63,190 nt of DNA from Alphaproteobacteria bacterium (lineage in GTDB: Bacteria > Pseudomonadota > Alphaproteobacteria > CAAHEQ01 > UBA3637), in assembly GCA_051885475.1 (NCBI GenBank), contig JBJEXE010000066.1, forward strand, positions 1 to 63,190, given 5' to 3'. Each line of letters begins with the position of its first letter. Position 1 is the first letter of the stretch. Positions 58,612-63,190 of this stretch are shown here, one piece after another. Position numbers and translations under genes: made by a program. The notes under the pieces were generated by a model. The model saw only the letters and a program-made list of their open reading frames with translations, did no database searches and had not been told where the DNA came from.

Positions 58612-60406
<1,795 letters not shown>

Positions 60407-61465
60407 TTATCCTCCCATCACACCACTCATCAACTGAATTGTTTCAGTTGTAATTTTATCTTGGCGCAAATGACGATATTCACGCGCCAAATTATCCAAC
60501 ATTTCATTCGCGTTATGTGTGGCATTATCCATCGCCATCAAACGAGCCGCTTCATCGCAGACACTGCTTTCCAGCAAAATCGTATGCACATACGCTGTTA
60601 AATAAATCGGCAACATCTGATTCAATAGGGCAACATCTGAGGGTTCGTAATCATAGGCGTCTGGCCGGCGTGTCGTCGCGTGCAAAATTTCCAAATTTAA
60701 TTGTCCCCATGGACCTGTCCAATTTTTATGACCGACAGCTTGATAAAAGGAGCTGGCTTGAAAAGCCGGTTTAGATTTTCCAAAGACATCTTTGTGACGA
60801 TACCCTTCTTCGGGACGAATCAAAAAAGCCCACGGATTTTCGTTTTCATATTCGTGATTGGGAATCAGTTGACGAATGGTGGGGTGTTGAACGGCCATAT
60901 TTTCAAAGTGGTTATAAACCGTCAAACAAGTATCTATACGCCCTTCTTGGAAAGCCTGAATCAAATCCGATACCAAACGACCGGCGGACAAATACCCCTG
61001 CTCTTTTTCCAGTTTTTTTCGGGGAATCAGGTGAATTTTTAAATTGGGAAAAGTGTTCTTTAAAAAGCTGTCTCCTTTTGTCCCAAAACTGACAATTTGC
61101 ACTTCTTTTTGTTGTTCTAAAAGTGTGTTGATGAGCTCTTGTGTTTTTTGTAAAACACTGACAATATTATCGCCCCCAAAACCGGTATCCGAGGTAACAG
61201 CCACCACCGTGTACTTTTTATCGTGGCCGTTGCCGGTTAAAAGCGCAGGAAGTAAACTCTTTCCAGAAGATTCCTGACGCACAGAAACAGCACGAACCAA
61301 CCGGCGCATAATCCTGTCCGTTTCGGTAAGATACGGCATTTCCTGTAAAAGACGTGCGTGTTTTTTCTTTAACTTGGCAAAAGCAACCATTTTCATCGTG
61401 GAAGTCATTTGACGCGTCTGTGTCACAGAAGTTATCCGATTCCGGAGCTGTTTCATTGAGGACAT
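60407..61465 (-). CDS. atpG: F0F1 ATP synthase subunit gamma (with an insertion of about 50 aa)
   Basis: N-terminal LRNRI.SV..T.Q.T..M.MVA..KL and C-terminal ITTE..Q..SG helices. 352 aa against about 290 typical. Confidence 0.9.
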   Translation of the reverse strand: MSSMKQLRNRITSVTQTRQMTSTMKMVAFAKLKKKHARLLQEMPYLTETDRIMRRLVRAVSVRQESSGKSLLPALLTGNGHDKKYTVVAVTSDTGFGGDNIVSVLQKTQELINTLLEQQKEVQIVSFGTKGDSFLKNTFPNLKIHLIPRKKLEKEQGYLSAGRLVSDLIQAFQEGRIDTCLTVYNHFENMAVQHPTIRQLIPNHEYENENPWAFLIRPEEGYRHKDVFGKSKPAFQASSFYQAVGHKNWTGPWGQLNLEILHATTRRPDAYDYEPSDVALLNQMLPIYLTAYVHTILLESSVCDEAARLMAMDNATHNANEMLDNLAREYRHLRQDKITTETIQLMSGVMGG

Positions 61466-63190
61466 TAGTTTTCCCCCTTAAAGAGGGGAATTTCCTCTTG
61501 AATCAATTTTTCAAGGGCCGTTGTTTCTTCGCTAGACAAATCCCCCTGCGTGTTTAAATGATGTCCCCATTCAGGATGGAGAGCCAACGCCTTTTGTCGC
61601 AAATGGGTGGCAAAAGAAGAAACTTTATCAACAGGGAGTTGATCCAAATGACCTTGGACACCGGCAAACAAAGGAAGAGCTTCTTCAGCCAAAGAAAGGG
61701 GATGATTATTTTTTTGTTTTAAAAGTTCTGTTAAACGAGCTCCGCGTTCCAAAAGTTGGTGTGTGGCCGGGTCCAAATCAGAAGCCAATTGTGAAAAAGA
61801 AAGAACTTCACGATATTGAGCCAATTCCAATTTCAAATGTCCGGAAACACGTTTCATAAAAGCGCTTTGAGCACTGGAACCGATACGGCTGACCGACAAC
61901 CCCACATTGATGGCCGGTTTGATGTTTTGATTAAATAAATCATTATCCAAGTAAATTTGACCATCCGTAATGGAAATAACATTCGTTGGAATATAGGCAG
62001 ATAAATCCCCTTCTTGCGTTTCAATAACGGGAATGGCCGTCAAAGAACCGCTGCCTTTTTCCTGATTCAACTGGGCCGCCCGTTCCAACAAACGAGAGTG
62101 CAAATAAAATACATCCCCCGGGTAGGCTTCACGACCAGCAGGACGCTTTAACAAAAGCGACATTTCACGGTAAGCAACCGCATGCTTGGACAAGTCATCA
62201 TAAAACACAATGGCGTGCATCCCGTTGTCACGGAAATATTCCGCAATCGTAGAGCCCGCATAAGGAGCCAAATACCGCAAACAAGCGCTATCAGAGGCCG
62301 AGGCAGAAATAATACACGTATAATCCAGCGCATCATTTTTTTTGAGTTCTTGCATCAAATGGCGCACAGAGGAATGTTTTTGCCCAATAGCCACATAAAT
62401 ACAAAAAAGTTTTTCGGATAAACTTTTGCCTTTGTTATTGCGTTCACGCTGGGCCAAAATGGTATCCAAAATCAAAGAAGTTTTGCCCGTTTGGCGGTCC
62501 CCGATAATCAGTTCCCGCTGCCCACGACCAATCGGAATCAAGGCATCAACGGCCGTAATCCCCGTATGAACAGGATAAGCAACAGGATGACGTGCGATAA
62601 TATCCGGGGCGGGTTGCATCAAAGGCTTTTCATTTGTGCTGACCAGCGCCTTACCATCCAAGGGTTTGCCAAGAGGATCAAGGACGCGCCCCAACACGGA
62701 AAGTCCCGTCGGAATTGTTAAAACAGCATTTGTGCGATAAGCGGCCTCCTCTTCTTGAACTTTATTCCCCCCTTCAATCAAACACACGTCCACCGAGTCT
62801 TCATTTAAATTCATCACCATCCCCGTGGCGCCGCTTTCAAAAACAATTTTTTCACCCGATTGAACAGAGGGAAGACCCACGATATGCGCAACAGAATCTT
62901 GGAGTGATTCAACACGACCCACTTCGGTTAAAAGAGCCCGATCCGGCCAATCAGACATTTTTTTCAAAAGGTGAGCCGGAATCTTTTTAACCGGAATTTC
63001 ATTTAAATTTTCTTGCTGGGCTTGACGCCGGACAGACTGCCATTTTCCCAAAAGGGAATCATCCAAAATAACCGAACCGAAACGAACTTTAATGCCCCCT
63101 GCCAAATCCGGATTGAGCGCGAAATAACACACAACTTTTCGGGGAAGAAGTTTTTCCTTAATAACAGCCGCCAAATGTGTTTGTTGGCCT
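61465..63190 (-). CDS. atpA: ATP synthase subunit alpha, in frame with and not separated by a stop from the C-terminal end of subunit delta (OSCP); open to the window edge
   Basis: Alpha motifs GDRQTGKT, the ATP synthase signature and ITDGQIYL are present. The first roughly 55 codons upstream (..VVCYFALNPDLAGGIKVRFGSVILDDSLLGKWQSVRRQ) read as the delta C-terminus. The frame stays open back to base 63190. The first in-frame ATG of the alpha part is at 62958. Confidence 0.9.
   Translation of the reverse strand, partial: GQQTHLAAVIKEKLLPRKVVCYFALNPDLAGGIKVRFGSVILDDSLLGKWQSVRRQAQQENLNEIPVKKIPAHLLKKMSDWPDRALLTEVGRVESLQDSVAHIVGLPSVQSGEKIVFESGATGMVMNLNEDSVDVCLIEGGNKVQEEEAAYRTNAVLTIPTGLSVLGRVLDPLGKPLDGKALVSTNEKPLMQPAPDIIARHPVAYPVHTGITAVDALIPIGRGQRELIIGDRQTGKTSLILDTILAQRERNNKGKSLSEKLFCIYVAIGQKHSSVRHLMQELKKNDALDYTCIISASASDSACLRYLAPYAGSTIAEYFRDNGMHAIVFYDDLSKHAVAYREMSLLLKRPAGREAYPGDVFYLHSRLLERAAQLNQEKGSGSLTAIPVIETQEGDLSAYIPTNVISITDGQIYLDNDLFNQNIKPAINVGLSVSRIGSSAQSAFMKRVSGHLKLELAQYREVLSFSQLASDLDPATHQLLERGARLTELLKQKNNHPLSLAEEALPLFAGVQGHLDQLPVDKVSSFATHLRQKALALHPEWGHHLNTQGDLSSEETTALEKLIQEEIPLFKGEN

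What the first reader, a model, noticed from the sequence alone, without database searches (positions are those of the whole stretch)
61465..63190. ATP synthase delta (OSCP) and alpha subunits are in one continuous reading frame
Read on the minus strand from the window edge, the frame gives GQQTHLAAVIKEKLLPRKVVCYFALNPDLAGGIKVRFGSVILDDSLLGKWQSVRRQAQQ. This is a typical delta/OSCP C-terminus (xDPSLIGG..V..G....D.S......L). It continues without any stop codon into ENLNEIPVKKIPAHLLKKMSDWPDRALLTEVGRVESL.., the normal N-terminus of alpha. I checked the codons between 62950 and 63190 by hand and found no stop. A delta-alpha fusion conflicts with the 1:3 stoichiometry of these subunits. Free alpha would therefore also have to be made from an internal start, for example the ATG at 62958. 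b-delta fusions are known, but I am not aware of a delta-alpha fusion.
Basis: seen in the sequence. Interest (0 to 1): 0.6.

Follow-up and report, generated by a model that had tools for sequence, protein, structure and literature searches.

The report
Natural delta-alpha fused ATP synthase subunit
The ATP synthase alpha subunit of this small-genome alphaproteobacterium really is made with the stalk-docking half of the delta subunit fused to its front, a design that is conserved across its whole order, was built artificially in 2025 to give a three-stalk enzyme, and has since been noted in a few other bacteria.

Summary
On the minus strand, 63189..61465 is one open frame. It reads an OSCP/delta C-terminal domain, a short linker, then a complete F1 alpha.

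It is not a sequencing error. The same fused gene, with no stop, is found in 60 of 80 genomes, in 12 of 16 genera, of the window's alphaproteobacterial order. Identity in the fused N-terminal part falls to 23-30%, and the sampled alignment has no gaps there.

- **Only half of delta is present.** Just the C-terminal domain (about 75 aa) is fused; the N-terminal domain is absent. The gene starts about 17 codons beyond the window edge, on contig C39, just downstream of a neighbouring gene that is not an ATP synthase gene.
- **The proposed internal ATG is not supported.** The ATG at 62958 is not conserved even in the closest relatives, has no ribosome-binding site, and lies about 16 residues inside alpha.
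- **This kind of fusion is already known.** It was engineered in Bacillus PS3 (PDB 9JC1, Ueno et al. 2025) and gave up to three peripheral stalks. The same paper noted it in Acidaminococcus, and a 2026 preprint notes natural delta-alpha fusions more generally.

No free delta exists in any of the 80 genomes. This scan has already reported the same kind of fusion on other DNA, mostly Clostridia.

Verdict: a new member of a known kind. Whether the native enzyme carries more than one stalk is untested.

The parts
63013..63190 (-). Delta/OSCP C-terminal domain of the fused gene, cut at the 5' end by the contig end. About 17 codons, including the ATG, are missing, and the ATG lies on contig C39.
   Evidence: Pfam OSCP positions 117-170/172 match window residues 2-55. 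The domain aligns to delta residues 108-173 of solved ATP synthases and to residues 5-77 of 9jc1_I. The AlphaFold model of the 78%-identical full-length orthologue shows beta-alpha-beta-beta-beta-alpha at residues 4-75 with pLDDT 74-84. The start was located on C39.
62935..63012 (-). Junction: a short linker plus the normal alpha N-terminal helix (window residues 60-85). It contains the non-conserved ATG at 62958 (Met78).
   Evidence: The alignment of 17 fused genes has no gaps from the delta C-terminal domain to the alpha barrel. The model shows a helix at 83-95, equal to window residues 67-79. No conserved in-frame start or SD motif is present.
61465..62934 (-). F1 alpha subunit body (beta-barrel, nucleotide-binding and C-terminal domains) and the stop codon.
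   Evidence: Pfam PF02874, PF00006 and PF00306 match. The Walker A motif GDRQTGKT is present. The best PDB sequence matches are mitochondrial and Paracoccus alpha at E about 1e-168.
60407..61465 (-). atpG, the gamma subunit, 352 aa (unusually long). Its start overlaps the stop of the fused gene.
   Evidence: Pfam PF00231, E 1.8e-62. The order fusion-gamma-beta-epsilon is seen in most sampled loci, and gamma is 340-374 aa there.
58973..60406 (-). atpD, the beta subunit, 477 aa.
   Evidence: ORF carrying GGAGVGKT. Operon order is shown.
58612..59007 (-). atpC, the epsilon subunit, 131 aa.
   Evidence: Pfam PF02823, E 1e-16.

Best explanation
This is a genuine, ancient gene fusion, atpH(deltaN)-atpA. 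[quoted passage not shown]

Each alpha is translated with the roughly 75-residue C-terminal domain of delta at its N-terminus, followed by the usual alpha N-terminal helix. In ordinary enzymes the delta C-terminal domain is the part that holds the top of the b/b' peripheral stalk. The delta N-terminal domain caps the three-fold axis of alpha3beta3 and binds the alpha N-termini.

Every F1 head would therefore carry three equivalent stalk-docking sites (inferred). The partner Fo genes (atpI-like, a, c, b', b) lie on contig C18 and co-occur with the fused F1 operon.

The enzyme needs at least one b/b'-a stator. By analogy with the engineered Bacillus PS3 deltaDeltaN-alpha enzyme, it may bind two or three, which would raise the ion/ATP ratio. 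The number of stalks is not shown here; I put it at about 0.25-0.3.
For: - **Conservation.** The open fused frame has OSCP C-terminal and alpha domains. The same fusion, without stops and with open frames of about 597-698 aa, is in 60 of 80 genomes and 12 of 16 genera of the order. Seventeen sampled genes align without gaps across the junction.
- **No free delta.** An OSCP profile search of all 80 genomes finds only two carriers: the roughly 600-aa fusion (profile about 95-172) and a roughly 260-aa b-deltaCTD of the N-ATPase operon. No free full-length delta was found.
- **Gene start.** The gene start and the upstream genes, which are not ATP synthase genes, are seen in relatives and on C39 of this genome.
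- **Match to the engineered protein.** By sequence, PDB 9jc1_I (delta105-178 + linker + alpha, 580 aa) aligns over query 5-542 to chain 5-534, and the first 107 residues align without gaps. By fold, the three 9jc1 chains are the top three PDB matches, covering 586-591 columns against about 490-515 for ordinary alphas.
- **Co-occurrence with Fo.** The F-type a subunit is present in the same five genus genomes as the fused F1, plus one more, and is absent from the rest. Fo genes a, c and b' are confirmed on C18; the gene taken as b is assigned by position and coiled-coil look only, with no Pfam match.
- **Abundance.** More than 100 protein clusters of about 591-638 aa carrying PF00213 plus the alpha domains occur in metagenomes, annotated only as alpha.
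- **Engineered precedent.** The PS3 enzyme formed up to three stalks and a-subunits and had H+/ATP 5.8 (PMC12229609).
Against: - There is no protein-level evidence: no peptide across the junction, no size of the product, and no structure of a native enzyme.
- Post-translational cleavage or a non-canonical internal start cannot be excluded from sequence alone.
- The AlphaFold model is only moderate (mean pLDDT 73, pTM 0.59).
- Even the engineered enzyme showed on average only 1.26 stalks on cryo-EM grids, so three docking sites do not prove several stalks.
- Fifteen of the 21 genomes of the window's genus lack this F1 operon and keep only an N-type ATPase. The F-type enzyme is therefore dispensable in this genus.
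- The window copy itself is interrupted by a contig break of about 30 nt.
Confidence: 0.85

Rival explanations
1. Single-stalk enzyme with idle docking domains. The fusion is real, but only one of the three delta C-terminal domains binds a b/b' pair and one a subunit. The other two are unused. On this reading the fusion is an economy of a shrinking genome, in which a covalent tether replaces the delta N-terminal domain, with no change in the ion/ATP ratio.
For: Genomes of the order are about 1-2 Mb and the genus is losing the enzyme altogether. The Fo operon is ordinary, with single a, c, b' and b genes. In the engineered enzyme most particles on grids had one stalk, with a mean of 1.26.
Against: Nothing in the sequence limits stalk number once the axial delta N-terminal domain is gone. 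Biochemistry of the engineered enzyme indicated about 2 stalks and H+/ATP 5.8. Chloroflexus naturally has two stalks with a shortened delta N-domain.
Confidence: 0.55
2. Mixed products. Translation also starts inside the gene, or the protein is cleaved. Plain alpha is then made alongside the fusion, and the complex carries one fused and two free alphas.
For: The window has an in-frame ATG at 62958, and in-frame GTG and TTG codons are scattered through the linker. This would restore a 1:3 ratio.
Against: The ATG is absent in the three closest relatives. No start codon is conserved in any column of the linker among 17 genes. The window's ATG at 62958 has no SD-like motif, and the few SD-like motifs elsewhere sit at differing, non-conserved positions. 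A start at Met78 would remove about 16 residues of the alpha N-terminal helix. With the delta N-terminal domain absent there is no steric need for free alpha.
Confidence: 0.08
3. Artefact. An indel or a missed stop in the assembly has merged separate atpH and atpA genes.
For: The contig ends inside the gene, and the genome is a 70-contig draft.
Against: The same frame is open in 60 independent genomes, with identity in the fused part down to 23%. Fused proteins form more than 100 clusters from many assemblies. Upstream of the start there is no delta N-terminal coding sequence.
Confidence: 0.01

Closest known systems
Engineered deltaDeltaN-alpha fused FoF1 of Bacillus PS3 (PDB 9JC1; Ueno et al., Nat Commun 2025, PMC12229609)
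   Same: The architecture is the same: the delta C-terminal domain (PS3 residues 105-178), a short linker, and alpha from its N-terminal helix. The natural protein aligns to it colinearly, and the first 107 residues align without a gap. 9JC1 is also the best fold match in the PDB. In both cases there is no delta N-terminal domain and no free delta.
   Different: The natural protein has its own linker, not GGSGGS. It belongs to an alphaproteobacterial enzyme with b/b' genes, whereas PS3 uses a b2 homodimer. Epsilon is full length. The number of stalks and the ion/ATP ratio are unknown here.
Natural deltaDeltaN-alpha fusions of Acidaminococcus fermentans and UniProt G4Q3K6 and A0A1I2C5T3 (noted in PMC12229609), and the delta-alpha fusions listed in bioRxiv 10.64898/2026.10.01.756066
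   Same: The delta C-terminal part sits at the N-terminus of alpha, the delta N-domain is missing, and there is no atpH in the operon.
   Different: The lineage is different. The alpha part here is of the alphaproteobacterial/mitochondrial type (best PDB matches), so the fusion probably arose independently. Here it is ancestral to a whole order and coexists with an N-type ATPase. I could not check whether the preprint's tree already includes this order.
Chloroflexus aurantiacus F1Fo with two peripheral stalks (PMC12002316)
   Same: It is a natural F-type enzyme in which a reduced delta N-domain goes with more than one stalk and more than one a subunit.
   Different: Delta is a free subunit there, 157 aa, and dimerises through its N-domains. 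It is not fused to alpha.
b-delta fusions (mycobacterial b-delta; the N-ATPase b with a delta-like C-terminus)
   Same: The delta C-terminal domain is covalently joined to a neighbouring stator subunit. The window's own genome has such a b-deltaCTD (257 aa) in its N-ATPase operon on C42.
   Different: The fusion partner is b, which gives one copy per stalk, not alpha, which gives three copies per head. The fused gene in the window has no b-like part.

Membership tests
deltaDeltaN-alpha fused F-type ATP synthase (Ueno et al. 2025 design; Acidaminococcus type) | The delta C-terminal domain is fused in frame to the N-terminus of a complete alpha. | tested here: met
   Pfam domains in one frame; colinear alignment to 9jc1_I; fold match over the full length.
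deltaDeltaN-alpha fused F-type ATP synthase (Ueno et al. 2025 design; Acidaminococcus type) | The delta N-terminal (axial) domain is absent. | tested here: met
   In fused genes the OSCP profile is matched only from about position 95 to 172. ORFs start 3-30 residues before the C-terminal domain. The ATG and the unrelated upstream genes were found on C39 of this genome.
deltaDeltaN-alpha fused F-type ATP synthase (Ueno et al. 2025 design; Acidaminococcus type) | There is no separate atpH (free delta) in the genome. | tested here: met
   OSCP hits in 80 genomes of the order fall only in roughly 600-aa fusions and roughly 260-aa b-deltaCTD proteins. Caveat: these are draft genomes, and the window's own is 91% complete.
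deltaDeltaN-alpha fused F-type ATP synthase (Ueno et al. 2025 design; Acidaminococcus type) | The remaining F1Fo subunits are present (gamma, beta, epsilon, a, c, b). | tested here: met
   Gamma, beta and epsilon lie downstream in the window. The atpI-like gene, a, c and b' are confirmed on C18. The gene taken as b has no Pfam match and is assigned by position only. The F-type a subunit co-occurs with the fused F1 in the genus.
deltaDeltaN-alpha fused F-type ATP synthase (Ueno et al. 2025 design; Acidaminococcus type) | More than one peripheral stalk and a subunit per complex, with a raised ion/ATP ratio. | not testable with these tools
   This needs a purified enzyme, stoichiometry or cryo-EM. 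It is shown only for the engineered PS3 enzyme.
ATP synthase delta/OSCP (Pfam PF00213) | A full-length two-domain delta: an N-terminal helical bundle plus a C-terminal alpha/beta domain. | tested here: not met
   Only the C-terminal third of the profile is matched. This is a delta fragment, not a delta subunit.
F1 ATP synthase alpha subunit (PF02874 + PF00006 + PF00306) | Three-domain alpha with the Walker A motif GDRQTGKT and the non-catalytic signature. | tested here: met
   (E 6.6e-81 and 1e-35). The motif is visible in the sequence. There is 50-51% identity to mitochondrial alpha in structure alignments.
b-delta fusion (mycobacterial or N-ATPase type) | A b-like transmembrane helix and coiled coil precede the delta part. 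| tested here: not met
   Across the order the fused ORF begins directly with the delta C-terminal domain. No PF00430 hit is found in the window frame.

The most novel reading that the evidence does not exclude
In this order of apparently non-respiring, small-genome Alphaproteobacteria, the native F-type ATP synthase usually carries two or three b/b'-a stators docked on its three deltaCTD-alpha subunits. [quoted passage not shown] It would be a natural multi-stator F-ATPase within the bacterial class from which mitochondria arose, evolved independently of the Firmicutes cases.
Probability: 0.25. Interest if true: 0.8.

Novelty: new member of a known kind. Interest (0 to 1): 0.45.

Why it matters
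The number of peripheral stalks and a-subunits sets the ion/ATP ratio, a basic bioenergetic constant that was long thought to vary only with c-ring size. Since 2025 there has been an engineered three-stalk enzyme and one natural two-stalk enzyme (Chloroflexus).

This finding adds a whole alphaproteobacterial order, and more than 100 metagenomic protein clusters, in which the exact engineered design is the only form of alpha and delta. These proteins are annotated everywhere simply as 'subunit alpha'.

The order provides a second, probably independent, natural lineage for testing whether multi-stator F-ATPases exist in nature. It also gives a clean comparative series: inside one genus the fused F-type enzyme is being lost in favour of an N-type ATPase. 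If the enzyme turns out to have a single stalk, the finding is still a useful annotation correction and an example of subunit fusion during genome reduction.

Tried and rejected
- **Sequencing or assembly error.** Rejected by conservation in 60 genomes.
- **Full-length delta continuing beyond the contig end.** Rejected: relatives start the ORF at the C-terminal domain, and the ATG with its upstream neighbours was found on C39.
- **Internal start at 62958.** Not conserved and has no SD motif.
- **The search of protein representatives with the 86-aa N-terminal piece.** It returned only 8 hits, mostly fragments, and said nothing about distribution.
- **The search for related loci with the junction alignment.** With the single protein it returned one locus, 'Alphaproteobacteria bacterium UBA3637', which gave the class name only.
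- **Class-wide OSCP search of 301 genomes.** The table shows only the 150 best matches, all ordinary free deltas. It could not show whether fusions exist in other orders of the class.
- **The look-up of sequencing runs.** Closed, so no read pile-ups or RNA data could be checked.
- **TLC (ATP/ADP translocase) search.** Uninformative, because the control rang in no genome.
- **GTDB name of the order.** I did not try to determine it.
Full report
**1. Observation**

Read on the minus strand, window 63189..61465 is one open frame of 574 codons that runs off the contig end. Pfam finds the end of the OSCP/delta profile (positions 117-170 of 172) at residues 2-55. A complete alpha follows: beta-barrel at 89-153, nucleotide-binding domain at 210-434 (E 6.6e-81) and C-terminal domain at 441-565. 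Downstream lie gamma (61465..60407), beta (60406..58973) and epsilon (59007..58612).

**2. Where the gene starts**

The window is the entire contig C66 of a 916-kb, 70-contig draft that is 91% complete. Four congeners carry the complete gene: 594, 596, 601 and 611 aa. Each starts with an ATG or GTG only a few residues before the delta C-terminal domain. In three of the four, a small gene and a divergently transcribed YgjP-like metallopeptidase gene lie upstream; the fourth sits too near its contig start to show.

In the window's own genome those two neighbours lie on contig C39. Its reverse strand ends, 8 nt after the stop of the small gene, with ATG AAA ACT GAA AAA TTA C. This reads MKTEKL, matching the MEKIQ, MSSKK and MLSEK starts of the relatives. 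Only about 10 codons fall in the gap between C39 and C66. The protein is therefore about 590 aa and lacks the delta N-terminal domain altogether.

**3. Not an error, and not local**

A search of the order with the 130-residue junction region finds the same fused frame in 60 of 80 genomes and 12 of 16 genera. There are no stops, and open frames are 597-698 aa where the contig allows. Identity in that region falls to 23-30%. Seventeen sampled genes align without a single gap from the first strand of the delta domain into the alpha barrel. The delta motifs NPxLLGG and IDxS are conserved, and so is the alpha N-terminal helix.

A profile search finds more than 100 protein clusters of about 591-638 aa carrying PF00213 plus the alpha domains. 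Where they are named at all, they are called 'F0F1 ATP synthase subunit alpha [Alphaproteobacteria bacterium]'. One related contig is titled Alphaproteobacteria bacterium UBA3637.

**4. No free delta and no plain alpha**

An OSCP profile search of all 80 genomes of the order gives only two kinds of carrier above the cut-off. One is the roughly 600-aa fusion, matched at profile positions about 95-172. The other is a protein of about 255-268 aa. In this genome the second kind is the b subunit of an N-type ATPase operon on C42. That operon reads beta, epsilon, AtpQ-like (PF09527), AtpR (PF12966), a, c, b-deltaCTD, alpha, gamma.

The window's operon has its own Fo genes on C18: an atpI-like gene, a, c, b' and a gene taken as b. 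This is the alphaproteobacterial layout. The putative b has no Pfam match and is assigned by position and coiled-coil look.

Within the genus, the fused F1 operon is present in 5 of 21 genomes. The F-type a subunit is present in the same five plus one more. All 21 carry the N-type operon's b-deltaCTD gene, and the N-type alpha was found in 18 of the 19 sampled. The fused F1 and this Fo therefore behave as one unit.

**5. Internal start**

The ATG at 62958 is Met78 of the window frame. The three closest relatives have Leu at that position. No SD-like motif precedes it. No in-frame ATG, GTG or TTG is conserved in any column between the delta domain and the barrel. By alignment with 9JC1, alpha begins at about window residue 61-63. 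A start at Met78 would therefore remove the N-terminal helix. I find no support for a separate alpha, though a non-canonical start or cleavage cannot be excluded from sequence.

**6. What it is like**

The PDB holds an engineered protein of exactly this design. 9JC1 chains I, J and K consist of Bacillus PS3 delta residues 105-178, a GGSGGS linker, and alpha. The natural orthologue (P0001, 78% identical to the window protein) aligns to it over residues 5-542, and the first 107 residues align without a gap.

An AlphaFold model has mean pLDDT 73, and 74-84 over the first 60 residues of the delta part, falling to about 69 in its last helix. It gives a four-stranded sheet with two helices at residues 4-75, then the alpha N-terminal helix at 83-95, then the barrel. 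Against the whole PDB, the three 9JC1 chains are the top three fold matches. They cover 586-591 columns, whereas ordinary alphas cover about 490-515.

Ueno et al. removed the delta N-domain because it occupies the three-fold axis and so limits the enzyme to one stalk. Their fused enzyme formed up to three stalks, each with an a subunit, and had H+/ATP 5.8.

**7. Mechanism, with status of each step**

- Shown: the fusion exists, the delta N-domain and free delta are absent, the rest of F1Fo is present, and the arrangement is conserved.
- Inferred from established structures: the delta C-terminal domain docks the b/b' stalk, the covalent link replaces the binding of delta's N-domain to the alpha N-termini, and every head therefore has three equivalent docking sites.
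- Open: how many sites are used. I put a mostly single-stalk enzyme at about 0.55, a usually multi-stalk enzyme at about 0.25-0.3, and a mixed product from an internal start at under 0.1.

Context that fits a low-potential lifestyle, but is weak, comes from the own genome. No heme-copper oxidase, cytochrome bd, NuoD or Rnf/Nqr was detected in this 91%-complete draft.

**8. Novelty**

Natural deltaDeltaN-alpha fusions were pointed out for Acidaminococcus fermentans and two UniProt entries in 2025. An October 2026 preprint states that delta-alpha fusions, some carrying only the delta C-terminal part, occur in its genome set.

This scan has itself reported the same kind of fusion about 70 times on other DNA, mostly gut and rumen Clostridia. 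One later check there priced the multi-stalk reading at 17/100.

New here is an order-wide occurrence in Alphaproteobacteria, with a b/b' stator and a mitochondrial-type alpha. The fusion coexists with an N-ATPase that carries its own b-deltaCTD fusion, and the genus appears to be in the middle of losing the F-type enzyme. I file it as a new member of a known kind.

**9. Limits**

All genomes are drafts. The GTDB name of the order was not obtained.

Noticed in passing
G000 contig C42:1-6242 (outside the window): A complete N-type ATPase operon reads beta, epsilon, AtpQ-like (PF09527), AtpR (PF12966), a, c, b (257 aa, with an OSCP C-terminal domain) and alpha (507 aa); gamma follows but runs off the contig end (at least 194 aa). 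Its b-deltaCTD gene is in all 21 genomes of the genus. It appears to be the only rotary ATPase in about 15 of them.
   Followed up: partly
window 60407-61465 (-), especially about 60656-60859: Gamma is 352 aa, against about 285 positions in the Pfam profile, which implies an insertion of roughly 60-70 residues. Gamma is 340-374 aa in the sampled genera that carry the fused alpha, so the insertion goes with the fusion. Its role is unknown. It was also flagged by another first-stage note.
   Followed up: partly
G000 whole genome: There are no hits to COX1 (PF00115), cytochrome bd (PF01654), NuoD (PF00346) or Rnf/Nqr (PF02508) in this 91%-complete, 0.92-Mb genome. This suggests an organism without a classical respiratory chain that nevertheless keeps two rotary ATPases.
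   Followed up: partly
G000 contig C39:1-1040 and window 63190: Contig C39 (2350 b) abuts the window end. It carries the ATG of the fused gene, a small membrane-protein gene and a YgjP-like metallopeptidase gene, in the same order as in relative G013 (L005). The assembly gap is only about 30 nt.
   Followed up: yes
G000 contig C18:23053-25216 (-): The F-type Fo operon has an atpI-like gene (91 aa), a (241), c (81), b' (138) and b (160). Both b-type subunits are rather short, and the second has no Pfam hit. The first helix of c reads GLIALVMLGVAKGVSQIW; from memory I would expect a Gly-rich helix-1 motif there, but I did not check this.
   Followed up: no
protein P0015: The best-scoring hit to the profile of the fused family is a 790-aa protein annotated as mitochondrial ATP synthase alpha of the nematode Toxocara canis. 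It has no OSCP domain. Its score (1209 bits) is higher than that of any true family member, which may point to a duplicated or chimeric gene model, or to contamination.
   Followed up: no
protein P0107: A 602-aa fused deltaCTD-alpha that is 55% identical to the family is labelled 'Lactobacillales bacterium' in NCBI. This is probably a mis-binned contig.
   Followed up: no
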